The position numbers and the translations under genes are program-made. Shown one piece after another: positions 20,704 to 40,170 of a stretch of DNA of 42,113 bases. Origin of the DNA: a virus (lineage: Duplodnaviria > Caudoviricetes); the IMG/VR virus record IMGVR_UViG_3300007541_000045, positions 1-42,113 of that record; one strand, given 5' to 3'. The stretch's first letter is position 1. The number at the start of each line of letters is the position of its first letter. A model generated the notes under the pieces. It searched no databases, was not told where the DNA came from, and saw nothing but the letters and a program-made list of their open reading frames with translations.

Positions 20704-20721
20704 AAGTATCTCCTTAGAGAG

Positions 20722-20762
20722 TAAGATGAAATCCTCTCCTCCAGCGGTAGCCGAAGGGAGGG
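20722..20762 (-). terminator. Intrinsic terminator (paralog of the one at 24925-24964)
   Basis: CCCUCCCUUCGGC-UACC-GCUGGAGGAGAGGA followed by UUUCAUCUU. Confidence 0.6.
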
Positions 20763-20772
20763 TAAGGGTTAA

Positions 20773-23322: not shown

Positions 23323-23335
23323 TGTATTGTTTCCC

Positions 23336-24367
23336 TTATGGGGTATAAGGTCCGTCGTAGTTTCTCCACGACGCAAAAGTTCCTGGGTCGTTTTCGTACT
23401 GGACGACAATGTCGCCGACTGCCCACCCGTCCGTGCCTTCGTTTACGGTTGTCAGGCGTTGCCCGGTACTATTGACACTCCAGGAGTTATATCTTACTGA
23501 CCATTGTTGTGCGGAGTCATCCCACACCGCATAGTAAACAGGGCCTTGCTGGGCCGACGAATACGATAGAACTGCGAAGTAACCGCCGATTGGTCCCATA
23601 AACGTCGCATCGTCTATATTCCCGCCGACACTGGCAGACGTAATCTCGATGATGAGCGGTACGGTGTTTCCAAACCCTGTGCTGGTGATCTGAAAAACAC
23701 CAGAGTGATTGGTATCCCAATCAGGACCAGCAGCCGCCACGGTAACAGCAAGGGCATCCGACGCCGGGCTATCGCTAGCCGTGGCCGAGCTCACCGTACA
23801 GGTAACAGTAAAGCTACCAGAGGTAGAGAAGGTGATGTCCGTAGTAGCCGCCGTAGGAGTAGCGATCGTTGCGCTGCCGTCCGTGGTAGTCCACAGGTAG
23901 GTAGCATCGGTAGCATCGCCATCGAAGGCAGCGGAGTAGGACTCAGCCACGCCCTCAGTGGGTGCTGCGGAGCCAGTAACCGTAACCGTACCAATGGTTG
24001 TGCTAGAGCCAGCCGTAAGGTTGACACTCTGCTGAGTGGTCGTCGTTAGGTTGGTACCAGTGGACGAGGTGATGTCCGCACCAGTACCGGAATAGGCCAT
24101 CTTGGCGATGACCGTAGTATTGCTAGTGATCTCAACGGTGAGGCTATGGTCAGGCTCGGTGGACTCAGCGAATGCACCGCCACCTACGCTATACCAGATA
24201 GCGATATCACCGGGAATGTCAAAGAGGGTAGTATCAAAGGCTGGGGTTACCTTCCACGTGGCAGAGCCACCGGCAGGAACCTCCTGATCAACAACCCAGT
24301 TATCAGTAAGCGAGAAGACTAGGTTGTTTCCGTCGCCTACTACAAGATTAAAAGGTCCAGTAGACAT
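23336..24367 (-). CDS. Ig/PKD-domain virion protein, 343 aa
   Basis: Thr/Ser/Ala-rich; TYLWTT...TDITFSTSGSFTVTCTVS PKD-like strands; SD GGAGG. Confidence 0.65.
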   Translation of the reverse strand: MSTGPFNLVVGDGNNLVFSLTDNWVVDQEVPAGGSATWKVTPAFDTTLFDIPGDIAIWYSVGGGAFAESTEPDHSLTVEITSNTTVIAKMAYSGTGADITSSTGTNLTTTTQQSVNLTAGSSTTIGTVTVTGSAAPTEGVAESYSAAFDGDATDATYLWTTTDGSATIATPTAATTDITFSTSGSFTVTCTVSSATASDSPASDALAVTVAAAGPDWDTNHSGVFQITSTGFGNTVPLIIEITSASVGGNIDDATFMGPIGGYFAVLSYSSAQQGPVYYAVWDDSAQQWSVRYNSWSVNSTGQRLTTVNEGTDGWAVGDIVVQYENDPGTFASWRNYDGPYTP

Positions 24368-24379
24368 AAGAACCTCCTA

Positions 24380-24898
24380 TCAAGCCGCAGGATAAGTGGT
24401 GGTGACATGGTTAACAAAATCGGTAAACGTCGCGGTAGGGTTCGCTCGGAAGAAGTCAGCCAAAGCTTCCATTTCCGTACGGCCATCGGTAATGACAAAG
24501 AGCTTCTTACCGTCATTGGCATCCTGAGTACGAGTGTCGTACTGAGCTTGAGTCAGAGCAATGACATCGACAATAGATCCAGCAGCAACATCACCGCTGC
24601 TGGTTGTCAGCGCATCGCTACTAACGTAGTTCTCGTCATTAGTAAGATCTGAGATATTGTCACCCGGCTGAACAGATGTGGTAGCCAAGGAACCTTGAGC
24701 GGCAGTTGCATAATCGGCTGCAGCAGTCGTAGCTGCGGTTCCAAGACCAAGATCAGCTTCGATCTTATCCGAAAGGGCTGCCACAGTAAGCTTACCAGTA
24801 GTGCCAGCAGTGGTATCCCAAACTGCCACAAGATCCGTATCCTGAACATCGGAACCAAGATCAACAAGTTCTGAAATGTTTCTATCGTTTGCGGCCAT
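24380..24898 (-). CDS. Short tail-fibre/adaptor protein, 172 aa
   Basis: NISEL N-terminal motif; LGLGTAATTAAADYATAAQG, ISDLTND and LTQAQYD...LFVITD fibre motifs; SD AAGGAG. Confidence 0.7.
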   Translation of the reverse strand: MAANDRNISELVDLGSDVQDTDLVAVWDTTAGTTGKLTVAALSDKIEADLGLGTAATTAAADYATAAQGSLATTSVQPGDNISDLTNDENYVSSDALTTSSGDVAAGSIVDVIALTQAQYDTRTQDANDGKKLFVITDGRTEMEALADFFRANPTATFTDFVNHVTTTYPAA

Positions 24899-24924
24899 AG
24901 TAAATCTCCTTATGAGAAATAGTT

Positions 24925-24964
24925 AAAGTAAAAGTCCTACCCCCAGCGGCAGCCAAGGGTAGGG
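24925..24964 (-). terminator. Intrinsic terminator
   Basis: CCCUACCCUUGGC-UGCC-GCUGGGGGUAGGA followed by CUUUUACUUU. Confidence 0.7.
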
Positions 24965-24998
24965 TTAGGGTTAGCCATAAAACAAATTTGTCGTTAAT

Positions 24999-27641
24999 TT
25001 ATAAACAAGTTCCAAGATCTGGAGCATTCCTGACTCCTGGCTCCAGCCACGTGTCATCTGGAGTTGAACCACCGGCGTATATGGCTTCATCATCCGGGAG
25101 ATTTTCAAAGTCAGAAATGTAGGTCGTGTACCACGCAGTGTAGCCTGACGATCTGTCCTTGATTGACTTTACATCGGCAAGCGATGGGGCGGAGCTGACC
25201 CATCGAACGCCGATCTGCCCACCATCTGTTGCGCCATTCAGCAGATCTAAATCCGTCGGAAGCAAGGTCGAGGAGCTCAAATAACAACCGACCGTTGACT
25301 CCCTGTTTGGATTCTGCGCTATTCCATCAACCTGCCCGATGTCGGCCGCGCAATTTGCCGTCAAATGCGACTGGCATCTTTGAGTCCAGAAGTTGTTTGA
25401 CATTCTTACAACGTCCGATTTTCCGTTTGTTAGTGTCGGGAAAACACTGGAGCCGGAAATTTGAGCTCCTTGGAAGTAGTTGTTATGGAATCTGCTTGTA
25501 AGTCTAAAGGGCTGCGACGATGACGACATCAATAGCTGGCCGGGCGTGAACGATGTACTCAGAGACACATGAGTATTTGAGGCGACCAGATATCGGAAAT
25601 TTGGAAACAGATCTTCCGATGACCAGAACGCATCTTGATCATGGTTGTACACGGTACCGAAATTTTGTGAATACCAGACAGCTGGCGTCAACGTCCGGTA
25701 GTTGGTCTCGATGAAAAGGTTGCCTTTCATCTCGAACCGATATGGTTGTTGATCTGTTCGGATCGTTCCTGAACCATATGTCGCGTGCTGCATCGTAACA
25801 CCTCTAGTGGTGTTGAACACTATGTTGCCACTGAACACCGCATTGTTGCATGTTCCCTGATAGAAGGAGACGCACTGGCCGTGTTCTGTCAGCGGGTTGC
25901 AGAAAAATGAATTTGTAACGACTGACGCAAGACCGTTTCCTTGCGTCGTTCCTTCCGGCAAACCATAAGACGAGTCCGGAGTTCCACTCATGTTGATGTT
26001 CGACGATTGATACGTCGGCCCGAACCAGCACTTATCAACAGTGAGACCAGGCGAGCCATATAACTGAGAGTAGAAAAACTGATCGAAGACCGATCTTTCT
26101 ACACGTCCTTGGACTCTAGAAATTGCGTTCTGTCCATAGGAAAATTCGCAATCAGAGATATGCACAAGCGCTCCAACTCTCGGCGAAGTTGATCGCAGCA
26201 TCTGGCGTCCACAGCGCATCGAGCAGTTGCTGAACTTGACATATTTGCTTCCGGAACTTAGATCGTCGAGAGTATCCGGATAAGCGTAGTTGTCCCCAAT
26301 CACGAAAAGTTCCGCAGAAGCAATCCCGAAAACGGAGCTGTTTACAGAGCGAACATCACGTGGTTTCCAGTACATCGTCTGTTCGTTCGGGAAATAGACG
26401 ATTTGTCCAGACTCAAGGTTAGCTGGTGGGCCGAAGATAGCGGCGTTCAAATATGAAGAGACGCTTGAAAACGTCAGCAAATTGAAGTCTTCTGAAAATA
26501 GAAACCTAATCTCATTCGGAGATGCTTCTTCGGTTACACTTTGAACTGGACACCAGAACACCCGATTGTCCGAGGATTGTACATTCAGCGAACAACCACG
26601 CGAATCCGATATAAGACCACCAACCTCATTGAAATTAAACGCCTGAAGAATGCCAGCGATGTCGCTTGGGTTCGTAAATACAACTCCGCCGACTGTTCTA
26701 TAAGTCAGTCTAACTTCCCAGTCAATTCCAATTCCGATTGATTCGACAAGACTACCGATTGAATCCGATGTGAAAGAAACGACGCTTCCATCTCGCGAAA
26801 AGCTAGTGTAGGTAACTTGCGCCGACGTAGACCCAGGGTTCAGGAATATTACCTTTCCGGAGTTTGTAAAATAATCAATAGCCTCATCAGTTGTTCCAAA
26901 TGTCATTTGGATAACCCAGCTTCCAGAGCTGCGAGAAGCACTAATTGAATTAAGTCCGATGTCGGATCCCTCTACAGTCTGCGTAACCGTTGCATCCCAA
27001 GAAGAATCTGGTACAATTGAGTTAGTGCTTAGATTGTAAGAAGATACAAAAGGATTTCCGCGATGGTCCATCAAATAACCGTCAAGCCTGCTGATATTGC
27101 TTGAAGTTGTAATTTCAACTCTTGTCACATTTCCTAAAGAGTAGTCGTCTACTGCAATATCATCATCAGCCCAAACAGTTCCGAACTCGATGTCTCGCTC
27201 ATTTGGCGGATAAATTATCTGTTTTGGAGCTTTCTCATACGAACACCACAAGAACGGAGGGTACTCAACGATAGATCCATTTGTCTTGAAATCACAACTG
27301 GCCCGATAGACTCCCGGTCCAAAAGTGTTTAATTCGTCTGCTAACCAGCTCGGCTGGAAGCCGCCGTAGAAATTGCCGTTTTCGATTGTGATCGTTTTGT
27401 CTGTTGGCAACACGATTGCAGAATCGTGGGAAATTGAAACTCCACCCCTATCTAGGGAGCTGATGTAGTTCTTTCCCTCCAGATCGATTGTTGATCCGTC
27501 TTCGGCAGAATCTATTGTGGATTGCAAGGAAGCAAGAGAGAAAAACTCAAGCTGCTCTTCTTGAATACTTCCGGACGCAATTGTCACTGATGAACCATTG
27601 AACCGAAAGCTTGCCGCGTTCGTGCCTTTTGCGATTCTCAT
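24999..27641 (-). CDS. Parallel beta-helix tailspike/depolymerase-like protein, 880 aa
   Basis: SLQSTIDSAEDGSTIDLEGKNY cap helix; xxNxF repeats (VTNSFF, FSGNIVFN, KGNLF, HNNYF); GATDGGQIG end; ATGA overlap with the upstream gene. Confidence 0.65.
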   Translation of the reverse strand: MRIAKGTNAASFRFNGSSVTIASGSIQEEQLEFFSLASLQSTIDSAEDGSTIDLEGKNYISSLDRGGVSISHDSAIVLPTDKTITIENGNFYGGFQPSWLADELNTFGPGVYRASCDFKTNGSIVEYPPFLWCSYEKAPKQIIYPPNERDIEFGTVWADDDIAVDDYSLGNVTRVEITTSSNISRLDGYLMDHRGNPFVSSYNLSTNSIVPDSSWDATVTQTVEGSDIGLNSISASRSSGSWVIQMTFGTTDEAIDYFTNSGKVIFLNPGSTSAQVTYTSFSRDGSVVSFTSDSIGSLVESIGIGIDWEVRLTYRTVGGVVFTNPSDIAGILQAFNFNEVGGLISDSRGCSLNVQSSDNRVFWCPVQSVTEEASPNEIRFLFSEDFNLLTFSSVSSYLNAAIFGPPANLESGQIVYFPNEQTMYWKPRDVRSVNSSVFGIASAELFVIGDNYAYPDTLDDLSSGSKYVKFSNCSMRCGRQMLRSTSPRVGALVHISDCEFSYGQNAISRVQGRVERSVFDQFFYSQLYGSPGLTVDKCWFGPTYQSSNINMSGTPDSSYGLPEGTTQGNGLASVVTNSFFCNPLTEHGQCVSFYQGTCNNAVFSGNIVFNTTRGVTMQHATYGSGTIRTDQQPYRFEMKGNLFIETNYRTLTPAVWYSQNFGTVYNHDQDAFWSSEDLFPNFRYLVASNTHVSLSTSFTPGQLLMSSSSQPFRLTSRFHNNYFQGAQISGSSVFPTLTNGKSDVVRMSNNFWTQRCQSHLTANCAADIGQVDGIAQNPNRESTVGCYLSSSTLLPTDLDLLNGATDGGQIGVRWVSSAPSLADVKSIKDRSSGYTAWYTTYISDFENLPDDEAIYAGGSTPDDTWLEPGVRNAPDLGTCL

Positions 27642-29512
27642 GATGTCGGCCCGTCATAAGCACGCCAGGACGAAGGATCGCCCGGGTCGCTTGCGTAAAA
27701 AATCATCGCGGCCGGAACGTCTATTGGGTTCTGGGGATCATTCCAGGGAATCGACAAACTATAGATGACAAAAGATTTGTACACTCCAGTTGTAATGATT
27801 GCTCCAACCTCCCAACCGAGAACGTCGTTCCAATATCCTACATAGGGAGCGACACTGCCCATCGTATCGGCATTAAAGTAGTAGCCATTGGCGGAGTTAG
27901 TCCATGGACCAGCTCCGCCGGTGCCCCTCGTGATCTCTTCTGGCTGGATCGGGTTCATAGCCGGAGTCTGACCAACGACCGACCACATCGTCCCATCGTA
28001 AAACGATAAGTCGATATCGTTTCCGTCGTTGACCGACCCATAGATACGGCCAACGACGGTAGCCGCCGTGTCCCAGTCAGCAGCCGCAGCCGCCACGGTA
28101 CCAAAGTCAATCATAGCAGTATCGTCCGGGCTAACTCCATTGCTAGCCGTCACGACACAGGTCAGAGCTTCTCCACCGGAGAGCCCAGAGGTATCAAACG
28201 TAGCCTGATCAGTACCTGAGTCAACAGCATCTACCTTCCATTGATAGGAAATGGTAGGAGCCGGAGTACCAGTAGCACTGGCAGTAATCGAGGCTGTATC
28301 CCCTACGGTAAGACTGTCCGCAGTTTGATCACCACTAGCAGTTAGCGTAGGTGCTACACCACCTTCAAGAGACGTAGTGAGCCCATCCAACAGAGGAATC
28401 TCTCGCGACCAAGCATAGGTCAGCGAATAAGACTGCCCCTCGGGGACTCCGCCAATCGTAGGAATGGCGTAAGCAAAGCCACCGATCTCCACGGGAGCAC
28501 CGGCAGTAGATTCGCCTGAGATCTCCAGAGCAAGGGTAAGGTCATTGACCGCATCCTTGTAGATAACGTTACTTACGATTGAGCTAACAGTGTACTCTGT
28601 CTTTGATAGACTAATTGACTTTGGTGAAGTACCATTATCAAGGAAAAGAACCTCATCATCAACTTTTGTACATACATTAGTTACTGGTGCAGTAAAATCT
28701 GAAGCTTGGATAGTTTTATTAGCACTACTATAAGAACCTCCACCAAAATACCAAGCTTCAGCATCTGCAGCTGTATTAAAGTTTAAACTAAGAGTAGTAC
28801 CATTACCTGTGATTGATGTTAACCCAAGCTCATCGTATAAAACATGTCCCGCGCTAAGCGTTTCTCCCAAAAAGATACCATCGCCTGGTCCTGCATCTGT
28901 AATAACATAATCTGGATCAATGTATGCCGCTACTACACCATCTAATAGGACAGCACGCATAGCGGAGTTTTCTGCGAAGGTGCCATAAGCACCAATAAAA
29001 GTATCTGTTTGCGAGCCACCAGCTACTGCAATAATTCTATTACCTTCGATTACAGCACTAGCTACTCCATTGACTCCCCAAGTAACTTGACCATCAATAG
29101 AGTTCTGGTAGGCAAAATAAGGCTCACCAGCAAAGTCAAGTGCAGTATAATCAATTAGATCTAGTGTGCCTGCAATCTCCGTAACAGGATCACCAACAGT
29201 GGCGAGTGTTAGGATGTTAACATCAGGATCAATGGTAGATCCACGAGAAAGCATATCGGTAATAGCTGCCTCAGCTCCCTCTAGGTCTCCGTCACGATGG
29301 AGAATACAACCGACCAAAGCACCAATAGCAGCTGCTTGGGTGGGGTATTGTCCTACGAGGACAGACTGGTTAATGGTAAGAGTCCATACAGCCCGGTCCT
29401 GTGTTTCAATAATCTTGAAGGATCGTACATACTTAAACTTAGGGTTATTGATATGAACAATCCTTGCATAGTCTAGGTCTGCTGTGTAACCAGCAATACT
29501 AACTGTTGCCAT
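27638..29512 (-). CDS. Multidomain Ig-like virion protein, 624 aa
   Basis: VGDTASITASATGTPAPTISYQWK...LTCVVTASNGV Ig domain; SD AAGGAG; C-terminal domain paralogous to that of 23336-24367. Confidence 0.7.
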   Translation of the reverse strand: MATVSIAGYTADLDYARIVHINNPKFKYVRSFKIIETQDRAVWTLTINQSVLVGQYPTQAAAIGALVGCILHRDGDLEGAEAAITDMLSRGSTIDPDVNILTLATVGDPVTEIAGTLDLIDYTALDFAGEPYFAYQNSIDGQVTWGVNGVASAVIEGNRIIAVAGGSQTDTFIGAYGTFAENSAMRAVLLDGVVAAYIDPDYVITDAGPGDGIFLGETLSAGHVLYDELGLTSITGNGTTLSLNFNTAADAEAWYFGGGSYSSANKTIQASDFTAPVTNVCTKVDDEVLFLDNGTSPKSISLSKTEYTVSSIVSNVIYKDAVNDLTLALEISGESTAGAPVEIGGFAYAIPTIGGVPEGQSYSLTYAWSREIPLLDGLTTSLEGGVAPTLTASGDQTADSLTVGDTASITASATGTPAPTISYQWKVDAVDSGTDQATFDTSGLSGGEALTCVVTASNGVSPDDTAMIDFGTVAAAAADWDTAATVVGRIYGSVNDGNDIDLSFYDGTMWSVVGQTPAMNPIQPEEITRGTGGAGPWTNSANGYYFNADTMGSVAPYVGYWNDVLGWEVGAIITTGVYKSFVIYSLSIPWNDPQNPIDVPAAMIFYASDPGDPSSWRAYDGPTS

Positions 29513-29533
29513 AAGGATCTCCTTAATATAAAT

Positions 29534-29572
29534 AAAAGAAAGCCTAGCCCCTTCCGGTAGGAAAGAGCCAGG
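29534..29572 (-). terminator. Intrinsic terminator
   Basis: CCUGGCUCUUUCC-UACC-GGAAGGGGCUAGG followed by a U-rich tail. Confidence 0.75.
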
Positions 29573-29580
29573 AGAATAAG

Positions 29581-29676
29581 TTACTTAGAAATAGTTTTAA
29601 TAAGAGTCACGGATGAAGGCTGCTTGCCTTTTCCCTTGCTCTTCTTTTTGATAACAATAAACTGAATCTTAGGCAT
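29581..29676 (-). CDS. Small basic peptide, 31 aa (not in ORF track)
   Basis: MPKIQFIVIKKKSKGKGKQPSSVTLIKTISK; TAATG coupling to the tail fibre stop; ends just before the terminator. Confidence 0.5.
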   Translation of the reverse strand: MPKIQFIVIKKKSKGKGKQPSSVTLIKTISK

Positions 29677-31319
29677 TAGCGTACCTCTGTAATGGTAGCA
29701 TAAACATCATTAAATACAACTTTTGCTCTGAGATCACTATTAAACGCGGGCAGAGTTAAACGGAAGGTAAGTACATCACCTGCTTGTACAGAAATAGTAT
29801 TGAAATAGGATACAGTTTGAATTGCTTCTGATAAATTAATTAATCGATCTGAGGTCGGATCTGGCCTATCTTGATATATATCATCCCATTCTGCACGATA
29901 GGAATATGCCTTGACGCCTTGAGCACTACTTCCCTTAAACACTAGACCATAACCACGTGCTTCACTTCTGTATTCACCAGTACTAGCATAAGAAAGTACT
30001 GGACCATCATTAGAAATAAACCAAGATAAAGAAGTTACCAGTGTCATATCCCTTGGAGCGGTCCATTGTCCAGTAGCTGTTGAAAAATCACTACTTCCAG
30101 TGCCTCCAATACTTGTACTAGAGTAATCAGAAGTTTTACCTACAATAGTCTCAATAATTGATGTAGTGGATGGAGTTTTAGTTGCACTATCTCCAGAATT
30201 AATAGTAACAAAATATGGCTGATTAGTGATGTAGTCATGTACACTTGTACCTTGAATAGTTACGTCTCCGGCAGTGACAACAACATTTCCAATAGGAATG
30301 TTTAATTCACCGGATAAGATATCAATATCTCCAGTAGTAACCTCAAGCCCTCCAGACGAAACAGTTACATCACCAGACGAAACAGTAAGATCACCAGAAG
30401 TAATACCAATACCACCAGCGGTAATCGTCGCACCGTTTGCAAGAACTGTTGGGCCTGGGTTTGTGGGTTGTGTAATGTTTTGTGTTTTATTCTGAAGAGT
30501 CGAAATAGAAGAATCTAAAGTACTGAGCTTTGTACTCAGTTTATTTGTACCAGCCTTACCATCACGAACATCATCATAGGTAACAAATTCCCAAGCAGTA
30601 TCGTTACCAGTATTTGGATTTACATATAGTACTGCTTTTCCATCATCAGTAGGACTAAACCCAGCCGTTGATGGAACAAGACTACCGGCATCTGCGCCAG
30701 CAGTAACGACTGATCCATTCCAAGAAAGAATACCATTGGTGTTTAAGGTTACATCACTGAGATCAGTAATACTGCTGTTAGTAAGATCAACGCCACTAAC
30801 AATACCGCCAGCTGAAACACCAAAAGCTGTAAGCTCCTGAAGAGCATTGAATAACTGAGCACTAGAGAGGTTTAGGTTCTCAGCCGTTAGGCGACTGCCA
30901 GGCTGAAAGACTACTAGCTGCGAAGTAATGTCAGTAGCTCGTCGAATCTGGAGATTCTGAGAGCCGCTAATAGTTACCGTGTTTGGGTAAAAGTAAGTTG
31001 TTCCACTTTCTACAGTAACCTCAGCATTTGCAATTGATCCAGTATTAAGCGTAATTGTCTTAGCTTCAGCATCAATTGTATACTGAACATCAGGTACAAG
31101 AGTCTTAATGGTAGCCTGAGCATTATCGCTTAGATCTTCAACAGAAAAAGCAACACCTTGATTATCTGCAAGTGAATAGACGGTATCAACATCCCAACGA
31201 ACCTCAATTTGGCTTTGGTCTGTTAGGTTATTAATAAGTGAAAGCTGTGCGTAAGAGTAGGTCGCGGAGGACTCAGTATACTGCACAAGAAGCGTAGCTT
31301 CGGAATCGTTCTGGGGCAT
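29676..31319 (-). CDS. gp17: Tail fibre protein (T7 gp17-like N-terminal adaptor), 547 aa
   Basis: IRRATD...VVFQPGSRLTAENLNLSSAQLFNALQE matches the T7 fibre anchor; GDLTVSSGDVTVSSGG repeats; C1q-like C-terminus (FSTATGQWTAP...VQAGDVL). Confidence 0.85.
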   Translation of the reverse strand: MPQNDSEATLLVQYTESSATYSYAQLSLINNLTDQSQIEVRWDVDTVYSLADNQGVAFSVEDLSDNAQATIKTLVPDVQYTIDAEAKTITLNTGSIANAEVTVESGTTYFYPNTVTISGSQNLQIRRATDITSQLVVFQPGSRLTAENLNLSSAQLFNALQELTAFGVSAGGIVSGVDLTNSSITDLSDVTLNTNGILSWNGSVVTAGADAGSLVPSTAGFSPTDDGKAVLYVNPNTGNDTAWEFVTYDDVRDGKAGTNKLSTKLSTLDSSISTLQNKTQNITQPTNPGPTVLANGATITAGGIGITSGDLTVSSGDVTVSSGGLEVTTGDIDILSGELNIPIGNVVVTAGDVTIQGTSVHDYITNQPYFVTINSGDSATKTPSTTSIIETIVGKTSDYSSTSIGGTGSSDFSTATGQWTAPRDMTLVTSLSWFISNDGPVLSYASTGEYRSEARGYGLVFKGSSAQGVKAYSYRAEWDDIYQDRPDPTSDRLINLSEAIQTVSYFNTISVQAGDVLTFRLTLPAFNSDLRAKVVFNDVYATITEVR

Positions 31320-31433: not shown

Positions 31434-34382
31434 TTAGAGAACGCCAGAGTAAGTTGCTTTGAACTTACCCTTGACTTGTAGATTAGTAAGGTTAACTGGA
31501 GTAAAGTAATCAGAGAGAATAAAGATCTCAATCTTGTCACTAAAGCCCATGATCTTACTAACTAGTTCCCCTTGGTATTCAATATTACTGATCGAAAGAT
31601 TAGAATCTGCAAATGTGTCAGACTGCGGAGCAGCAAATGAAGTAGTAAAGTTACTTAGGAGTGGATCCCTGCTTTCATAAGCTGCCTGAATGTCATCCAC
31701 GGGACGACCACGACGCTGAACAACAACGTCATAGTTGCCAGTATTGTAGTGCCGTGTAAGTAGTGAGGCAATGTTAAAAATACCTTCCCGAGGATTGTTT
31801 TGCTCATTCCTAAGAAATTGTGTACTCATTTGGATTAGCATAGTAAAGCTACGGCCAATCCAATAGTCACCACTAGTTACATCGCCTACAACAGTAATGT
31901 CTGTATAAGCCGCAGCAGGAGTAATGCTCGTAATGTTATACGATACTCCAGCGGTATCCACAAAGTCATACTGCTTGTTTGCATCCAAGACATATGGAAT
32001 GCGAACTGTTGTTTCTACGTCTGCCACAGAGTAGTGACAGTTGAAGGCAGTAGCATCAAAGATTGGGTTGTTTACATCCGTTCCATCTAGAGGACCACTC
32101 TTTGGATACATTGTAATCTTCTGCTTTCGATCAAGCCGTGGGATATCAATATCATCGTAGCGAAGATGTTGACGCTCAATATGATAGACAGAGTCTCGCT
32201 CTACAACCATATAAGCATAGTTTTCCCATGCCTTGATCGACTTAACAGCAGCATCTTCGTAGTTAAACTTATAGAATGCATTCTGAACAATCTCATTTCC
32301 ACGGTACCGAGTAGTGTAAAGATATACATCAGACTCGTTGTTACCGTCTACTGCCATGATAGTATCCTGAGCAGCAGCCACAGCTGTAGCTCCATACACT
32401 GTCGGCAGATACTTAGGACAATGCGCGGATAGTTCTTGAGCAGTAGATAGACTACCACCTCGGCCTAGATAGAGATATAGTCTCTCAGCATCATAGAAGA
32501 AGATGTGATTACCTAGAGTCAAGGGATCTACCAGAGGAGCCGTTGAATAGAATGTCATTGGCTGTAGCTCTGCTGTAAACGGAGTAATCTGATTCTCCGA
32601 TCCCATGAGCTCGTACTGAGTATCAGCATCAGTATTCACAAACATATAATCCTTAAATGGTACCATAGAGGTAATAGGAGTATAGCGGTTTGTGGATGCA
32701 GCGATATCAATAGGATCAGTATCTACAATGATACCCGGATCTTCAATCCATAGGTTGGTGTAGTTGTTCTCTTGGCTAGAGAAGATTACATCTCCCGAGG
32801 ATAGCCATAGGCGGTTACGGAAGAATGCAATGGTAGAAAGCTTAGCTTGCTTTCCGTCCTTGAAGGGTGTTGGGCCGGGGTTAGTTTCCTTATCACCTGA
32901 GGTACGCTCAGCCCATTCGAGCTTAGACCATTCCCATTGAGTAAAGACACTATCACCACCAACAAACTCTAGCTGCATTGGCATACGCTTATCATCTAGC
33001 AAAGAATACTCATCAGGAGTACGGACCTTCATCATGTGAGGAGCCGTAACACTCTTAGCAATGTAGTATCCAGGAGCTTGGCCCTGATAGCTAGTCTGAA
33101 TATAGTAAACCTTACCTTCAGCTGAGTTGTATTGCAGTGTTGAGATATCATCCCAAGTACCATCGGCAGGACTTGTATCCTCACCAATCTCTAAACCATA
33201 AAGCTGATTCAGCATGATCTGAGCATTGTTGTTCCCGTAGAGAACATCGCTCTCCAAAGGAGGAAGCCTAAGATCATTGAAGGTTGATAGTGATTGTCCA
33301 AGCTGAGGCTTAGAAGAGTCTGGGTATTCCCAGTCCTTCACAGGAACCTGTACAGGCTCACGCTCAAGATCCAATGGTGGGTCAGGAGTGGTATCAGTTA
33401 AAACATCAGGATTAACAACATAATCATAATCCGACGCAATTAGACTAAAATGCGTAGCGTGATGAATATGCTCATCAGGAACAAGGGTGCTAGAAACAAC
33501 ACTGAGAATATTATAAGCATTGTTTGATACGAAGTCTAAAGTTGTACCGTGAGCACCATGCCCACCATTCCAATCTTGGGTACCCGGAAGATAAAGCAAC
33601 GTAGTACCAGCAACATAGGTAGAATAAGGATCCCAGATAGTAGCAATACCCTGAGGATCTACCTTGATTGCGGATAGGTACTCTTCCTTGGCTCCTTTGG
33701 TATCAATGATGTAGGCAGTTCCAGAAGATAATCCATCGCCATCAACCTGACCATTAAGCCCAAGCTTAACCCAAACTTCAGTAGCTTCACTGAACTGTTG
33801 GGTTTGGTCGGTATATGGATCATAATACCAGTCAGTATCTGTTACAGCAATCTTCTTACTGGTATACCCAGCATAGACATCTGGGTTTAGGAAGATGAGG
33901 TTCTGCCCACGAGTTACCAGCTTCAAAGGAGAAGCGCCGTAGGTAATGTAGGCACGAACGTCTGCATCAATAGTTGACTGCTCTGATGGGGTATGATCTT
34001 CAAAGTAATCTAAAGTCTGATTGAAGTAATAGACATAATACAGAAGGTCTGCACTGTCACTTGCTCCACGGTCTACGACAAAAAGGTATCTAGCCGCATC
34101 CGATAGTGAATGCCAAAAGAACTCATAGGAACCACTGCCAACAAGTCCAAGAGACTCGGCAGTCCAAGTATCAAGAGGAGCATCCTCAAAGCTTCCACGG
34201 ATCGGCATGAGGTCCGTACCGGGTCGCTTTTCAATTGATCGTTCAACACTACAAAGAGTGTTAATGAGTTCCTGAGACTCGCTAGGCAATCGCTTCGACG
34301 GAGCTTGACGACCCACGCCGCCAGACAGAGAATAGATCGGAATGTTAGTTGTGAGAGTCTTGCCTCGTCGTCGGTTATTCAT
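31434..34382 (-). CDS. gp12: Tail tubular protein B (nozzle, gp12-like), 982 aa
   Basis: LSGGVGRQAPSKR...EKRPGT; W-RTSGDKETNPGPTPF...FFRNRLWL; DTDPIDI; follows gp11. Confidence 0.93.
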   Translation of the reverse strand: MNNRRRGKTLTTNIPIYSLSGGVGRQAPSKRLPSESQELINTLCSVERSIEKRPGTDLMPIRGSFEDAPLDTWTAESLGLVGSGSYEFFWHSLSDAARYLFVVDRGASDSADLLYYVYYFNQTLDYFEDHTPSEQSTIDADVRAYITYGASPLKLVTRGQNLIFLNPDVYAGYTSKKIAVTDTDWYYDPYTDQTQQFSEATEVWVKLGLNGQVDGDGLSSGTAYIIDTKGAKEEYLSAIKVDPQGIATIWDPYSTYVAGTTLLYLPGTQDWNGGHGAHGTTLDFVSNNAYNILSVVSSTLVPDEHIHHATHFSLIASDYDYVVNPDVLTDTTPDPPLDLEREPVQVPVKDWEYPDSSKPQLGQSLSTFNDLRLPPLESDVLYGNNNAQIMLNQLYGLEIGEDTSPADGTWDDISTLQYNSAEGKVYYIQTSYQGQAPGYYIAKSVTAPHMMKVRTPDEYSLLDDKRMPMQLEFVGGDSVFTQWEWSKLEWAERTSGDKETNPGPTPFKDGKQAKLSTIAFFRNRLWLSSGDVIFSSQENNYTNLWIEDPGIIVDTDPIDIAASTNRYTPITSMVPFKDYMFVNTDADTQYELMGSENQITPFTAELQPMTFYSTAPLVDPLTLGNHIFFYDAERLYLYLGRGGSLSTAQELSAHCPKYLPTVYGATAVAAAQDTIMAVDGNNESDVYLYTTRYRGNEIVQNAFYKFNYEDAAVKSIKAWENYAYMVVERDSVYHIERQHLRYDDIDIPRLDRKQKITMYPKSGPLDGTDVNNPIFDATAFNCHYSVADVETTVRIPYVLDANKQYDFVDTAGVSYNITSITPAAAYTDITVVGDVTSGDYWIGRSFTMLIQMSTQFLRNEQNNPREGIFNIASLLTRHYNTGNYDVVVQRRGRPVDDIQAAYESRDPLLSNFTTSFAAPQSDTFADSNLSISNIEYQGELVSKIMGFSDKIEIFILSDYFTPVNLTNLQVKGKFKATYSGVL

Positions 34383-35044
34383 TAGCTAGTCCTCCCTCGC
34401 CAAGAGCGGAAGTTAGGATTACCGCCAGATTGACGGAATACGGCACGCTTCTTCTTGTAGTCAGCAGCATCCCAAATAGTACGTCCCTTGCTATCCATGT
34501 CACGGGACTTACCAATTGAGTTATAGATCATTTCATCCTGCTGTAGATAAGCATCCATACCCTCATCACCCTGCGTAAGCATTTGGTATCGACGAGCTGC
34601 CGAGGCAGTAATCGCACGCTGGCCGGGAGTATCAATATCTTCCCAGTCAAGCTTGACAATCAAGGAAGCCTTGATGTCGTAGGTAGAATAGTCAGACCAA
34701 TTACTAGTCTGGTCGGTTACATTCCAAAGAATAAAACCTGACCCTTCAGTCTTAACAGCTACACGAATAGTGTACCCGTCTGAGTTGGTAATAAAAGTAC
34801 CAAAGTCTAGGCTCATGATGTTAGAGGGTAGGTGGATCTTGCCACTTACATCGTCAATCGTGAGAGTCTTTACAAATACGTTATTAGCCAGCCCTCGGAG
34901 CTGGTAGTCATCAGTATATTGATCAAGCAAGTATTCTGCAATGCTTGTATCAACTCCTGATTGGTTTTCCAGATCCGAGACAATGGCTTCTCCAGCTGCC
35001 AAGAGGCACTGGTTTACGGCATCAAGCCTAGTCAGTTGTCCCAT
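34382..35044 (-). CDS. gp11: Tail tubular protein A (gp11-like)
   Basis: TRLDAVNQCLLAAGEAIVSDL...LDWEDID...ITASAARRYQ. Confidence 0.93.
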   Translation of the reverse strand: MGQLTRLDAVNQCLLAAGEAIVSDLENQSGVDTSIAEYLLDQYTDDYQLRGLANNVFVKTLTIDDVSGKIHLPSNIMSLDFGTFITNSDGYTIRVAVKTEGSGFILWNVTDQTSNWSDYSTYDIKASLIVKLDWEDIDTPGQRAITASAARRYQMLTQGDEGMDAYLQQDEMIYNSIGKSRDMDSKGRTIWDAADYKKKRAVFRQSGGNPNFRSWRGRTS

Positions 35045-35070: not shown

Positions 35071-35108
35071 AGAAAAGACCCCCGATGCCCGTTAGGGCAC
35101 CGAGGGCC
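35071..35108 (-). terminator. T-phi-like terminator after the capsid gene
   Basis: GGCCCUCGGUGCCC-UAAC-GGGCAUCGGGGGUC followed by UUUUCU. Confidence 0.8.
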
Positions 35109-35238: not shown

Positions 35239-36361
35239 TCACTTATCAGCGTATCCGAACGAACCGGCGCTGTTCTGAAGCTTAACAAGAACCTCAGCTC
35301 GGGTTGGAGCACCAGCAGCAGCGTAACTGATGTCGGTGGGAGTACCGGCAACGTTAGCCTTTCGGTTAACAACGATCTTAGCGAGTTCTGGCTTGAGAAT
35401 GCCAGTACCGCTCATCATCGAGGCGACGGTGAAGGTGGTGTTACGACGGATATCATCTTCGGTATCGACGACGAGACCAGTCTTACGAAGCGAAGCAACG
35501 CACTCTGGCATCCAGATAAGAGCACGGACGCCAGCACCGACAGTGTCCACAGCAATTGCGGTGGAAACCTGACCAGTAACATCATAACGAGCCTCACCAA
35601 TGCTAGCAGCATCGTCAGTCTTGTAATCCTTGTTGGGAATGTGGTTGCTCTTGACGATGGTGACGCCCATGTAGCGAAGTGAATCGCTGAGGGAGTTCAT
35701 GCCCTGAGTGAACGGAGCACCGAGACCACCGGCAGCAGCAACACCACCGAACATGGGCTGCATGTTAACAGCTTCGTTAGCTGCATCAGCAACACCGAGA
35801 CGACGGATTTGCTGGAAGAGACGAGGAGAAACTGCGCAGTAGGTAGGACCGACTGGAACGCTGTTCTCCTGACAGTCAACAATGAAGTCCTCAATAGTAG
35901 CGAGAACTTCAAGAGCTGCTACTTCATCATCATCAAGACCTGTGATTACACCGGGAGCTGGAAGAACAAGACCAGAGCGGGGATCCGAATTGGTCTTTGC
36001 AACTGAACCAGCACCAGCGATAAATGCACCGATCTGCTTATCGCGAGCGTTTGCGAGAGTCTGACCAGCCTGTCGTGCGAGTTCCTGACGGTACTCCCAC
36101 TGGGTGATCATAAGGTCAATGTTGTCAAGCTCGAAGTGAGCAGCCATGGGGCGTGCATCGAGAGTAATATCAAAGTTACCAGCCTTAGAATCCTGGTTGC
36201 CTAGTAGCTCTTCGCCTGCGTGCCATGCTGGCTTAAGAGTTACAGTACCAGTGATGGGGAATTCCATCGAGCGGCCAGAAGAAATGGTCTTTGAAGTGAC
36301 CATGGGCTCAAAGCTCTTGTACTCATCATAGGCGTGGAGAACTTCACCACTCCAGATAGGA
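35239..36361 (-). CDS. gp10: Major capsid protein exon 2 (spliced product 409 aa)
   Basis: PIWSGEVLHAY...TISSGRSMEFPITG, ELARQAGQTLANARDK and GTGILKPELA match T7 gp10; joins exon 1 in frame (CT|T = Leu). Confidence 0.93.
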
Positions 36362-37178
36362 CTTGCTGGAGTACCAAGTTTCGACTATATCATCCTGAGT
36401 AGCGGTACTCAGGGAACGCACTTTCGTTATAGATCATTAACTTCTTTGAGTAATCAAAACGACCTTCGTATTGAAGATCAAACTTATATCTCATAGAAGG
36501 TGGAATATAATCCATAACGGGAAGAACCGTATCAAGTAACTGCCTCATTCCTGTGGAGTTAAATGATATCATGGGATATCCTCTTTGCTGAATCTGGCGT
36601 ATGCCGGTGATTCCAAAGTTCTTGGTAAAGGAATCCATCATCTTATCAACTTCCTTTATAGTAAACGAGCATACCGCTAGGCGTCCTTGTCTACTACCGC
36701 TGGAGCTGTTGACTCGAAAGCTGCCATCATCACACCAAAGCCACGCAAGTCCAAGAGGTGTCAGCCGATCAAGCATATACATGCTCGGATACTTGACTCC
36801 AGTGGACTTCCATGCTCTATTAAAGTTCCAATGACGAGCTGTGATGTGTGTCCTCATAAAGACCTGACCACTTCCCAACGTATTGATGTTGGATACGCGG
36901 CGATCAGACTCAATGAGACATGCACGAATGGATTCTAGATATTCACGCTGTTGAGGAGCGTGCTTAATACTCATTTGGTTACGTCGAGTTTTATCAACAT
37001 AACCATCACCAAGAAAGATACCAAATAGACTGTAGTCTATCTCTTTATTACTAAACATTGTTTTACTTCCTGTAGTCTGTGGAGTTTCCGGTGCAATACC
37101 GGATTACCTGCTGATTTTCTATCGCAATGATAGTTTTCCCAGCAATTCACGTTCTTTAAATTGGCCTCCTATTATCGA
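36362..37178 (-). mobile_element. Group I intron (IA-like), 817 nt, in the major capsid gene
   Basis: 5' splice site after U in a U.G pair (UGGCU/GGCCA, P1); terminal omega-G; IGS AUAGGA pairs with 3' exon UCCUAU (P10); P AAUUGCUGGGAAA, Q AAUCAGCAGG, R ACAGACUA, S GAUAUAGUC; P3 GAACG/CGUUC; P8 CCUGAGUA/UACUCAGG. Confidence 0.93.
36390..37058 (-). CDS. Intron-encoded LAGLIDADG homing endonuclease (two-motif, LAGLIDADG_2-like), 222 aa
   Basis: LFGIFLGDGYV and LTPLGLAWLWCDDGS motifs; IPPSMRYKF tail; lies between P7 and P3'. Confidence 0.88.
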   Translation of the reverse strand: MFSNKEIDYSLFGIFLGDGYVDKTRRNQMSIKHAPQQREYLESIRACLIESDRRVSNINTLGSGQVFMRTHITARHWNFNRAWKSTGVKYPSMYMLDRLTPLGLAWLWCDDGSFRVNSSSGSRQGRLAVCSFTIKEVDKMMDSFTKNFGITGIRQIQQRGYPMISFNSTGMRQLLDTVLPVMDYIPPSMRYKFDLQYEGRFDYSKKLMIYNESAFPEYRYSG

Positions 37179-37285
37179 AGCCAGAGCTTTGCATCAGCTC
37201 CAACAGTATTGTTAGTTGCGCCATACCCTGAGCGGTATGCCATGTTAGTATCGACTAGTGAATCACCAGATGGTGTATAGCTCAT
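37179..37285 (-). CDS. gp10: Major capsid protein exon 1 (35 codons + 2 nt; not in ORF track)
   Basis: SD AAGGAG after a U-rich enhancer; MSYTPSGDSLVDTNMAYRSGYGATNNTVGADAKLW-L; the unspliced frame hits TAA TAG. Confidence 0.9.
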
Positions 37286-37445: not shown

Positions 37446-38444
37446 TCACTTAATGTTTCGCCAATCAGTTCGTGCAGCTCGCATCTCAACGGCACGACGG
37501 AACTTGTCGTCACGCTGGAAACGAGGGTTGGACATGTCCATGCGATATTCTGCCATGGACTTATATCCGGGAAGTTGTTGAGTAGCCCCAGCAGTAGCTG
37601 GAGTTACCGCGTTCGGCTTAAGCTTTGGCTCTGCACTAGCATGAGCTTGGTCATAAGCGTCACGTAGACCTCGAAGAGTCAGCTCTGAGTTTGGACCAGC
37701 GAGTCCTGCCTGCAAGCCCTGTAGCTGCTCACCGGCAAAATTGTTCGCTGCCCAACGCAGGATCTTCGAGAGCTTTTCTCCACCACCAACAATCTCAGCG
37801 GCTGTAGTAAACGCAGCACGACGCTTAGCCTGTTGGGCAGAGAGATAATCATTTACCATTGCATCAGAGAAGCCAGTCTTTGCCTTGATCTCTTCACGAG
37901 CTTCAGGCGAAAGATCACCAGTCATGGCAATCTCCTGACCCCACTTAGAATAGTCGGCTTCCGTGACCCGAGCGGTGGGAGCTGCCTCTTCTGCTGGCTG
38001 CTCGTCCTTGACCTCGGGTACCGGAATGCGCAATTCATCGAGCATCTCTTCCGTGCTGGCGGTAGCAACCTCAGCGGGCTTGGCTTCCGGTGCAGCGGTA
38101 GGCTCGACATAATCAGGATTATCGGTGTTCTTTGCCATTTGATACTGTCGCTTGAGATCAGCAATCTCCTGCTGCGACTGAGTAAACTTGGCTTGAGCAC
38201 CCTTGAGGCTGTCGAACCAGTCGCCAGCACTCTTGAAGTTCTCAGGGATCTTCTGTCCCTGATCGGCAACGTATCGCTCGAACATAGCACGTTCATGAGC
38301 AAGCTGCCGAGTTGCTTCATCAGCTAGAGGATCGGCCTTGACTTGTTCAAGACCTGCCATAGCTTCAGTAGTCATCGAGGCATCATGGCCGGGAGTGATT
38401 GACTCCTCGACTACCTCTTCACGATAATTTTCTTCTTCACTCAT
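37446..38444 (-). CDS. gp9: Capsid assembly scaffolding protein (gp9-like)
   Basis: Acidic; IVGGGEKLSKILRWAANN; GYKSMAEYRMDMSNPRFQRDDKFRRAVEMR; between portal and capsid genes. Confidence 0.9.
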   Translation of the reverse strand: MSEEENYREEVVEESITPGHDASMTTEAMAGLEQVKADPLADEATRQLAHERAMFERYVADQGQKIPENFKSAGDWFDSLKGAQAKFTQSQQEIADLKRQYQMAKNTDNPDYVEPTAAPEAKPAEVATASTEEMLDELRIPVPEVKDEQPAEEAAPTARVTEADYSKWGQEIAMTGDLSPEAREEIKAKTGFSDAMVNDYLSAQQAKRRAAFTTAAEIVGGGEKLSKILRWAANNFAGEQLQGLQAGLAGPNSELTLRGLRDAYDQAHASAEPKLKPNAVTPATAGATQQLPGYKSMAEYRMDMSNPRFQRDDKFRRAVEMRAARTDWRNIK

Positions 38445-38464
38445 AGTGTTCTCCTTTCAATAGT

Positions 38465-38551
38465 TCAAAAGAACCAACAAACGCCACGAATGCAAGCTTC
38501 AAGAGCTGCGACAATAGCGTTCTGAACCTTTGTTAGTACCTTCTTAAGCAT
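38465..38551 (-). CDS. Small amphipathic peptide, 28 aa (not in ORF track)
   Basis: MLKKVLTKVQNAIVAALEACIRGVCWFF; SD GGAGGT and TGATG overlap with the portal stop. Confidence 0.5.
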   Translation of the reverse strand: MLKKVLTKVQNAIVAALEACIRGVCWFF

Positions 38552-40170
38552 CACATACCTCCTTGCATCATCTGCATGGCTGCACTAGTAATACCAGTCT
38601 GAGCAACCTGCCCAGCACCGGCGCCTGCACCTTGAGCTGCGCCCATTGCGATAGCTTGCTGTGCCTGCATTTCCATAGCCTTCTGCTGCATATCCATCTG
38701 CCTCTGGTCGGTTTCCTGTTCATTACGAACCCAACTACGGGGATCGAAACCAAGTGAGGAGATAAGAGCAATTCCATACTGATCCCAGCGGAAGTGCTGA
38801 ATAGCTTCAGCAGGTAGATTACGTACCATTTCACCGAGCTGCATGAGCTTGGTAAGATCACTGTCTCGGCTTAGTGCCTGAAGACCAGTAACAATGCTGA
38901 CAGAAAGCTTACCATTCTCGGTAAACTCATCTGCTAGTCGTTCGTCCATCTCGCCGTTGCGAAGCATTAGAGAGATAGTACGACGAACAATAGGATCAAG
39001 AAGTGATCGAGCGATTGCACTGAATGCACCGCCGAGAACATTCTCGATCTCCATACCAAGCATACGAACCTCGGTTGCCGTGACTCGTTCAGCAGAACGA
39101 ATACCAGCACTACCAAGGAGGAAGGCATTACCAACCTCACGACGCATCTGCTCTACAGCAGTCTGACAAGCAGAGAGCTGAGGGCTGATGGTCTGTGCAG
39201 GGGATACGGTGAATACATCACCCTGCCGAGCACCAATGAAGGATCCGGTAGGTGATTGAGCTACATCATCAATATCAGTAATACCTGCTGGGTCAATAGC
39301 AACCCAGAATGTCGAGGCTGCGGTCATGCCGTCAATCATGGCCTTGGTGTAGGCTTCAAGAGTCTCGATGTCACCGAGGATCTCTTCACAATGAGAGCGA
39401 CCGTAGTCCTCACCAGTTACCCCAATCCAACGCAATGGCATGAATGGAGTGCTGGTATACGTACCTTCGTCAACCTTATTGCCTTCAGCATCCTCGCTGT
39501 AGTAATCCCAGCGATCTTCCTTCTTGTTCCAGACCACACGACAGAAGTGTGCTTGGTAATCGGGAAGAGCATTGAGGGCATTCCACGAGGAAGGGAAGAA
39601 GTTGTTGTCATACGCTTCGTACATATCGTTGTTTGGTTCCTTCGGAACCCAGTCAAGATAAATCAACTCAACGACAGAGCCATCAATGTCTCGACGTACA
39701 ACGTACTGATCAAGACGATAGACTCGGAAGGTATAATCATCCTCCATCACAACCAAGCAGTCACCAGCAATGATTAGATGCTGAAGAGCAAGGAAGATAG
39801 ATTCACGAAGATTCTCAGTTGTCAGCTTGTTGTAGATCTGGTGAGACAATGCCTCCATGTAGGAGAAGGTCTCAGGATCTGCGGTGTTGCCGTCAGACAG
39901 CTCAAACTTAAAGAACGGTAGATCGTTCAGGGGAAGTAGAGCTGACAGCATACGGCTTGCCATGTTGGTAACACCACGAGAAGCTACCGAGCTAAAAGGC
40001 TTTGGTAGTTCGCCGTTGTTGGTGATACCATCAATTGGTAATAGAGAAGGAAGAGTAAGAGACGACATGTAGCGAGAGCGTTCAAGCTTGGAACTGCGAA
40101 CAGAATCCAAGTGCGTGAAACGCTCTGCAATAGTCGTGCTTTCAGTAGGCTTGGCTAGATTCTTTGCCAT
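38551..40170 (-). CDS. gp8: Portal (head-tail connector, gp8-like)
   Basis: SVASRGVTNMASRMLSALLP...PFFK; YVVRRD; GEDYGRS; RSAERVTATEVR; TGLQALSR. Confidence 0.96.
   Translation of the reverse strand: MAKNLAKPTESTTIAERFTHLDSVRSSKLERSRYMSSLTLPSLLPIDGITNNGELPKPFSSVASRGVTNMASRMLSALLPLNDLPFFKFELSDGNTADPETFSYMEALSHQIYNKLTTENLRESIFLALQHLIIAGDCLVVMEDDYTFRVYRLDQYVVRRDIDGSVVELIYLDWVPKEPNNDMYEAYDNNFFPSSWNALNALPDYQAHFCRVVWNKKEDRWDYYSEDAEGNKVDEGTYTSTPFMPLRWIGVTGEDYGRSHCEEILGDIETLEAYTKAMIDGMTAASTFWVAIDPAGITDIDDVAQSPTGSFIGARQGDVFTVSPAQTISPQLSACQTAVEQMRREVGNAFLLGSAGIRSAERVTATEVRMLGMEIENVLGGAFSAIARSLLDPIVRRTISLMLRNGEMDERLADEFTENGKLSVSIVTGLQALSRDSDLTKLMQLGEMVRNLPAEAIQHFRWDQYGIALISSLGFDPRSWVRNEQETDQRQMDMQQKAMEMQAQQAIAMGAAQGAGAGAGQVAQTGITSAAMQMMQGGM

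What the first reader, a model, noticed from the sequence alone, without database searches (positions are those of the whole stretch)
35239..37285. Major capsid gene split by a group I intron; splicing is obligatory for the most abundant virion protein
Seen: exon 1 (37285-37179) ends ...TGG CT, the intron (37178-36362) ends in G, and exon 2 starts T CCT ATC TGG. Joining them restores KLWLPIWSGEVLHAY, equivalent to T7 gp10 LFLKVFGGEVLTAF, and gives 409 aa. The IGS AUAGGAGGCCA pairs across the junction UGGCU|UCCUAU (P1 with U.G, plus a 6-bp P10). P3-P8 can all be drawn. The unspliced frame stops at TAA TAG within three codons. Known: group I introns of T7-like phages are described mainly in DNA polymerase genes, while capsid-gene introns are reported in crAss-like phages. 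Inference: this is an unusual site for a T7-like phage, and automated annotation would truncate the capsid protein to 354 aa.
Basis: partly seen in the sequence, partly recalled or inferred. Interest (0 to 1): 0.85.

Follow-up and report, generated by a model that had tools for sequence, protein, structure and literature searches.

The report
Mobile intron splits T7-like capsid gene
The major capsid gene of this uncultured aquatic T7-like phage is interrupted by an 817-base group I intron that is predicted to splice itself out and carries a likely DNA-cutting homing enzyme; capsid-gene introns are already known from other phage groups, so this is a variant of a known selfish element.

Summary
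Observation confirmed. Exon 1 (37285-37179) and exon 2 (36361-35239) join to 409 aa without a stop. Intron-less relatives carry the junction motif unbroken (49 of 51 informative loci), and one has a nearly identical exon 1. It sits between the P7 5' strand and the P3 3' strand and runs through P3 and P8 into J8/7. An ORF-less orthologue at the same site in a 50%-identical capsid scores 86.9 bits on Rfam RF00028, has the IA2 helices P7.1/P7.2, and shows compensatory pairs against the window. Endonucleases 90-99% alike appear to accompany capsids only 58-85% alike, which points to homing. One metatranscriptome contig skips exactly 817 bases, but an intron-less allele could explain it, so splicing is inferred, not shown. 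Precedents exist: capsid introns in LittleE, Tuc2009 and crAss-like phages, and DNA-polymerase introns in T7-like phages. This scan has noted capsid introns with LAGLIDADG genes on other DNA. I found no printed T7-like capsid case. New variant of a known kind; interest 0.38.

The parts
37179..37285 (-). Major capsid gene, exon 1 (35 codons + 2 nt), GGAG ribosome-binding site upstream
   Evidence: near-identical to the N-terminus of intron-less P0154
36362..37178 (-). Group I intron, 817 nt, IA2-like, no P2, 20-nt tail after P7
   Evidence: orthologue L033:2732-2999 scores 86.9 bits on RF00028
37162..37183 (-). P1 (37183-37177 with 37168-37162) and internal guide sequence 37172-37162; 37172-37167 forms P10 with 36361-36356
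   Evidence: IGS conserved in L033; chance test
37073..37154 (-). 5' half of the ribozyme core: P3 5' strand 37154-37148, P4, P5, P6, P6a, P7 5' strand 37079-37073
   Evidence: Rfam RF00028 positions 57-150, 19 bits, E 0.04; pairs
36390..37058 (-). Two-motif LAGLIDADG endonuclease gene (222 aa, I-SceI-like), own AGGA site 9 nt upstream; last 31 nt overlap P3 3' strand, P8 and J8/7
   Evidence: PF03161 E 2e-14; I-WcaI and I-SceI by profile and by fold
36362..36420 (-). 3' half of the core: P3 3' strand 36420-36414, P8 36413-36394, J8/7, P7 3' strand 36387-36382, small P9, terminal G 36362
35239..36361 (-). Major capsid gene, exon 2 (1 nt + 373 codons + stop); T7 gp10-like
35077..35108 (-). Terminator-like hairpin after the capsid gene, placed like T7 T-phi (recalled comparison)
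37446..40170 (-). Context upstream: T7-type portal (38551-40170) and scaffold (37446-38444) genes
   Evidence: PF12236 and PF05396
31434..35044 (-). Context downstream: tail tubular (34382-35044) and nozzle (31434-34382) genes
   Evidence: PF17212 and PF25675

Best explanation
The major capsid gene of a T7-like phage is split after codon 35 by an 817-nt group I intron that is predicted to self-splice and that carries a LAGLIDADG endonuclease gene, which likely spreads the intron by homing into intron-less capsid alleles of related phages. Shown: the split gene, the intron helices, the endonuclease gene and fold, intron-less alleles, and an ORF-less orthologue at the same site. Inferred from group I chemistry: guanosine bound in P7 attacks the U.G site in P1, P10 aligns exon 2, and the exons are ligated into the mRNA for the 409-aa capsid protein. 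Without splicing, ribosomes stop two codons into the intron. Inferred: the endonuclease is translated from its own ribosome-binding site in the precursor or excised intron, cuts the conserved junction sequence in an intron-less genome during co-infection, and repair copies the intron across. The endonuclease gene occupies the place of P7.1/P7.2 and has likely crept at its 3' end through P3 and P8.
For: Joined frame and helices. 49 of 51 informative viral loci and 110 of 120 listed proteins are contiguous across the site; 66 of 68 distinct alleles in the wider set. P0154 has a near-identical exon 1 without an intron, and L002 has the same 36 nt around the junction. L033 holds a 268-nt ORF-less intron at the same site (RF00028 86.9 bits, E 7e-23). 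Double-sided changes window vs L033: P3 3 of 7 pairs, P6 2 of 3, P6a 2 of 5, P7 1 of 6. Endonuclease: both motif aspartates invariant in 18 of 18 aligned, I-SceI-like, 6 of 8 listed strain variants synonymous. RNA: a contig in run X16 skips exactly 817 nt at the predicted ends.
Against: No splicing or cleavage assay. The RNA joint is one contig of depth 2.3 in 1 of 4 RNA runs laid, with no matched DNA run, and intron-less alleles exist as DNA. The window intron alone scores only 19 bits on Rfam because the ORF splits it. It lacks P2, P7.1/P7.2 do not fold at the ORF ends, and the P9 region is only 20 nt, so it may splice poorly without help. Covariation rests on two sequences. Three of the five intron labels on the tree rest on contig-length matches, not on read DNA, and the tree is the quick one.
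Confidence: 0.92

Rival explanations
1. The intron is real but not self-sufficient. Having lost P2, P7.1/P7.2 and most of the P9 domain, it needs its own LAGLIDADG protein as a maturase, or a host chaperone, to splice at the rate a capsid gene demands.
For: Core outside the insertion is only about 167 nt; 20-nt tail against 71 nt in L033; no stable hairpin at either end of the ORF. P7.1/P7.2 stabilise the guanosine pocket in the Twort intron (PMC1995217). LAGLIDADG maturase activity is described for the Thermotoga 23S intron (PMC3984707).
Against: All catalytic helices pair fully. Nothing in the protein marks it as a maturase; the nuclease motifs are intact. This refines the best explanation and does not exclude it.
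Confidence: 0.2
2. The intron is dead or unnecessary: the phage makes a 354-aa capsid protein from the downstream ATG (36303), or the genome is defective.
For: A 354-aa ORF is open. Residues 1-36 are low-confidence in the monomer model of an intron-less allele. Splicing has not been assayed.
Against: No ribosome-binding site before that ATG, which lies in a hairpin. The lost region holds the most conserved N-terminal motif and predicted helix 40-50, which aligns with T7 gp10. The intron occurs in samples of several studies and years, with splice signals and exon 1 intact.
Confidence: 0.04
3. The patchy distribution reflects one ancient insertion and many losses, not recent homing.
For: L033 has the intron without the endonuclease gene, as expected late in the gain-and-loss cycle. 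No cleavage shown.
Against: Endonucleases are 90-99.6% identical where their presumed host capsids are 58-85% identical. Each intron-labelled capsid has intron-less near neighbours. In runs X6 and X7 a near-identical intron is joined to a different 5' part of exon 1.
Confidence: 0.12
4. Assembly artefact or chimera.
For: The window is a metagenomic contig, 63% complete.
Against: A second record is 99.9% identical over 7,119 bases (L003); a contig of another study spans the intron with 3 differences; splice signals are exact; an orthologue exists at the same site.
Confidence: 0.01

Closest known systems
Mycobacteriophage LittleE major capsid gene intron (Pope et al. 2013, PMC3706429; passages read)
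   Same: About 820-nt intron near the 5' end of a major capsid gene, U at the exon 1 end, G at the intron end, LAGLIDADG-like gene inside, intron-less alleles in relatives; splicing shown there by RT-PCR and N-terminal sequencing.
   Different: Siphovirus host; its 177-aa nuclease gene is on the opposite strand and I-CreI-like, and its intron subtype was left unclear. Here: T7-like podovirus, same-strand two-motif I-SceI-like enzyme, IA2-like core.
[quoted passage not shown]
   Same: T7-like host, IA2 core; Pf-WMP3 also lacks P2; L033 has P7.1 and P7.2 linked by GUA, the stated IA2 mark; own ribosome-binding site for the ORF; ORF overlaps the core.
   Different: There the host gene is DNA polymerase and the enzyme is HNH in P6a. 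Here the host gene is the capsid and the enzyme is LAGLIDADG between P7 and P3.
Group I introns in MCP genes of crAss-like phages, Delta and Zeta groups (Yutin et al. 2021, PMC7886860; passages read)
   Same: Group I introns in the major capsid gene that break automated annotation.
   Different: Unrelated phage order with many introns per genome; here one intron, and no other Rfam group I match in the window.
I-SceI / I-WcaI two-motif LAGLIDADG homing endonucleases (PF03161; PDB 1r7m, 6x1j)
   Same: Family, fold and motif aspartates.
   Different: 17-19% identity; fungal mitochondrial rRNA-intron origin (recalled). The phage enzymes form a separate clade of 5 clusters, 27 sequences, with the next hits at about 31% identity or less.

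Membership tests
Group I intron | U at the end of exon 1 paired to G in P1; terminal G | tested here: met
Group I intron | Core helices P3-P8 with G-C next to the bulge in P7 | tested here: met
   compensatory changes against L033
Group I intron | Rfam RF00028 at gathering score | tested here: inconclusive
   Window 19 bits, split by the ORF; ORF-less orthologue 86.9 bits against a cut-off of 50
Group I intron | Precise removal restores a gene found unbroken in relatives | tested here: met
Group I intron | Guanosine-dependent splicing of the RNA | not testable with these tools
   One RNA-library contig joins the exons, but an intron-less allele is not excluded
Subgroup IA2 | P7.1 and P7.2 between P7 and P3, linked by GUA (as stated in PMC3428280) | tested here: inconclusive
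   Met in L033. In the window the ORF occupies this place and neither helix folds, so the window is filed as IA2-like through its orthologue
Two-motif LAGLIDADG homing endonuclease (PF03161) | Two LAGLIDADG helices with acidic residues; repeated alpha/beta fold | tested here: met
Two-motif LAGLIDADG homing endonuclease (PF03161) | Cuts the intron-less allele near the insertion site | not testable with these tools
   Only indirect: distribution and synonymous variation
T7-like phages (Autographiviridae-type) | Portal-scaffold-capsid-tail tubular A/B gene block and T7-type terminase | tested here: met
T7-like phages (Autographiviridae-type) | Single-subunit RNA polymerase in the genome | tested here: inconclusive
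   No such family hit among the 24 window proteins scanned (record 63% complete); present in 3 of 5 relatives' records, 2 of 2 complete ones

The most novel reading that the evidence does not exclude
A stripped-down ribozyme of about 167 nt, in which the endonuclease gene has replaced the P7.1/P7.2 stabilising helices and P2 and most of P9 are gone, depends on its own LAGLIDADG protein as a maturase. Capsid synthesis would then be hostage to the selfish gene, which also cuts the capsid genes of competing T7-like phages across a lineage whose capsids are as little as 50% identical.
Probability: 0.12. Interest if true: 0.68.

Novelty: new variant of a known kind. Interest (0 to 1): 0.38.

Why it matters
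It extends capsid-gene introns to an uncultured aquatic lineage of RNA-polymerase-encoding T7-like phages, in a group whose introns were described in DNA polymerase genes with HNH enzymes. It gives a natural pair, one intron with and one without its endonuclease gene at the same site, for testing what an insertion in the P7.1/P7.2 position and a minimal P9 cost a ribozyme in a gene that is normally very highly expressed. It adds a small clade of I-SceI-like enzymes with a predictable, conserved target. Practically, capsid calls of about 340-357 aa in this family can be truncated by the intron. The principle itself, obligatory splicing of a capsid mRNA, is already established.

Tried and rejected
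Rfam at gathering score found nothing in the window; an E-value scan found no second group I core. A loose IGS pattern in viral contigs gave mostly chance matches: of 120 loci, only the two known introns carried a core. A tighter pattern found 3 metagenome loci and 19 viral loci, with no further intron beyond the window type and the L033 type. Scans for the endonuclease found only the window's twin in viral contigs and nothing in prokaryote genomes. The capsid scan of genomes gave one contig of an unclassified MAG, so the host is unknown. Cultured phages hold only distant capsids (24-28% in the 30 rows listed) and one weak endonuclease hit. A core-motif scan (128 loci, about a third of the collection scanned) held this capsid family only in L033's record; among 126 cores, 9 had a long gap between the P7 strands, 8 with the bulk insert after the P3 3' strand (P8) and 1 an artefact of two introns. 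MAFFT misaligned the two introns across the ORF, so pairs were counted by coordinate. No sigma-70 promoter excess in the region (4 found, 3.3 expected) and no repeated phage-promoter motif stood out. The careful tree did not finish. The capsid monomer model is weak at residues 1-36 and 65-118 and was not used to argue function. No complex prediction was run.

Full report
Observation. The capsid gene starts at 37285 behind a GGAG site and its frame closes with two stops just after 37179. Exon 2 is open from 36360 to the stop at 35239. Removing 37178-36362 (817 nt) gives 409 aa with no internal stop. The region lies in a T7-type block: portal, scaffold, capsid, tail tubular protein, nozzle, and further on a T7-type terminase. 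The record is 63% complete, and none of the 24 proteins scanned hit an RNA polymerase family. Three of five relatives' records, including both complete ones, encode a single-subunit RNA polymerase. The host is unknown; runs holding the DNA are freshwater, estuary and marine.

Intron-less alleles fix the boundaries. Of 52 viral loci, 49 are contiguous across the site, one is too short to tell, and two are interrupted at exactly this site. Of 120 listed proteins, 110 carry the junction motif whole and 10 start downstream of it. In a wider set of 128 loci, 66 of 68 distinct alleles with the motif are contiguous; 9 loci lacked my motif, and the 8 of these that I checked are open full-length genes. 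P0154 has an N-terminus nearly identical to exon 1 and no intron. L002 has the same 36 bases around the junction as the window's two exon ends. A profile of these proteins aligns the junction with T7 gp10 LFLKVFGGEVLTAF and with the P-SCSP1u capsid, and a model of P0154 matches T7-like capsids.

RNA anatomy. Rfam sees only the 5' half in the window (19 bits, E 0.04), because an ORF splits the core. By coordinate, P1, P10, P3, P4, P6, P6a, P7 and P8 all pair fully, and P5 folds as a 5-bp hairpin. A guide sequence that fits both exon ends occurs at 2 places in the 42-kb strand, one of them in position. L033, whose capsid is 50% identical, has a 268-nt ORF-less intron at the same site with the same guide sequence. 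It scores 86.9 bits on RF00028 and has P2, P7.1 and P7.2 linked by GUA, and a 71-nt tail after P7. Against it the window shows double-sided changes in P3 (3 of 7 pairs), P6 (2 of 3), P6a (2 of 5) and P7 (1 of 6); P4 and P10 are identical. Two sequences give no statistics. A strain variant at 37090 turns a G-C pair of P6a into G.U (read). The window intron is minimal: no P2, a 20-nt tail after P7, about 167 nt of core outside the insertion.

The cargo. It is a two-motif LAGLIDADG protein (PF03161, E 2e-14), closest to I-WcaI and I-SceI by profile and by predicted fold. D18, D110 and D111 are invariant in 18 of 18 aligned sequences; that these positions are catalytic in I-SceI is recalled. The gene starts 15 nt after the P7 5' strand behind an AGGA site, and its last 31 nt run through the P3 3' strand and P8 to a stop in J8/7. 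The last 26 residues are low-confidence in the model, which fits the 'core creep' idea (PMC3073962, passages). The insert therefore takes the place of P7.1/P7.2. In a sample of 126 viral cores of this type, none of the 9 with a long gap between the P7 strands had its bulk insert there. The table of five examples in PMC3073962 lists P1, P6a and P8, and one paper search found no named P7.1/P7.2 insertion (listing only, plus passages of three of its papers). That is weak evidence of rarity.

Mobility. The enzyme has a clade of 5 clusters with 27 members, representatives 63-90% identical, all ending in the same core-overlapping tail; the next hits are at about 31% or less. Three members share exact contig lengths (11,827, 3,196 and 5,449) with three capsids that start downstream of the junction. 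I infer they are the same contigs but could not read them. These enzymes are 90-91% identical to the window's, their presumed capsids 60-69%. On a quick tree of 71 capsid rows (a subset of those found), the 5 intron-labelled rows need 5 changes, at least 4 forced by well-supported branches, no fewer than shuffled labels. In runs X6 and X7 a near-identical intron is joined to a different 5' part of exon 1. Six of the 8 listed variants in the ORF are synonymous (the list was cut by the tool). Together this fits homing better than loss alone. Only 14 of 32 distinct intron-less junctions would pair fully with the guide sequence, so successful homing likely needs a matching allele or co-conversion of the flanks.

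Expression. Four of five listed RNA runs were laid. In X16 one contig (depth 2.3, 82 letters on the shorter side) skips exactly 817 bases at the predicted ends. X16 and X19 also have contigs on the endonuclease gene, and X17 has an 11-letter loose end equal to the end of exon 1. This suggests splicing but does not show it: these are contigs, no DNA run of that sample was laid, and intron-less junctions occur in DNA runs X5 and X6. The alternative start at 36303 has no ribosome-binding site and lies in a hairpin, so obligatory splicing is a strong inference.

Comparison with what is known. LittleE has an 819-bp capsid intron with a LAGLIDADG-like gene and proven splicing, and the same paper cites a capsid intron in Tuc2009 (PMC3706429, passages). 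crAss-like phages have MCP introns (PMC7886860, passages). T7-like phage introns are described as rare, IA2, in DNA polymerase genes, with HNH enzymes in P6a (PMC3428280, passages). A 2007 compilation found only GIY-YIG and HNH enzymes in 14 phage introns (PMC1995217, section 6), but a PF03161 enzyme has since been listed in a Bastillevirinae polymerase intron (PMC11878797, passages). IA2 is the commonest viral subtype (PMC11835236, passages; data files not seen, and they may list related introns). I also read passages of PMC10448857, PMC3984707 and PMC12880540. Nine searches showed no T7-like capsid intron; I saw listings only for most hits, and subscription journals are not covered. This scan's earlier notes describe capsid introns with LAGLIDADG genes in at least eight other windows, two of them in podophage-like genomes (unchecked), and no look-alike of this stretch.

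Verdict. A real, likely mobile group I intron in a T7-like capsid gene (confidence 0.92). It works like the LittleE capsid intron and is built like the IA2 introns of T7-like polymerase genes. The new elements are the host gene in this phage group, the I-SceI-like cargo in the P7.1/P7.2 position, the minimal core and the ORF-less twin.

Noticed in passing
window 37078-37070 and 37038-37030 (-): The 9-nt sequence around the P7 5' strand recurs 40 nt later inside the endonuclease gene, within a predicted 8-bp hairpin; a possible decoy for P7.
   Followed up: no
window 36371-36366 and 36355-36350 (-): The short intron tail can pair (6 bp) with exon 2 just beyond P10, enclosing the 3' splice site. 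I did not see this pairing in L033.
   Followed up: partly
window 622-11106 and 11195-14278 (-): ORFs of 3,494 and 1,027 aa with no Pfam or PHROG match, next to a weak T7 gp14-like gene; probably very large internal virion proteins.
   Followed up: no
window 31434-34382 (-): The nozzle (tail tubular B) protein is 982 aa against a 794-position model, so it likely carries inserted domains.
   Followed up: no
window 19051-31319 (-): A run of large, mostly unannotated ORFs (550, 878, 343, 880, 624, 547 aa) with weak PKD, Ig and T7 tail-fibre hits; an extended tail or decoration region.
   Followed up: no
L234-L237, L259-L261, L274-L275: Viral loci with 3 to 8 group I core motifs within about 4-6 kb; host genes not identified.
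   Followed up: no
L239:1088 region (-): A distant relative of this endonuclease (E 1e-9) lies beside another group I core, but not between its P7 strands.
   Followed up: partly
L033:649-912: A short, very basic 87-aa ORF between portal and scaffold genes in the relative with the ORF-less intron.
   Followed up: no
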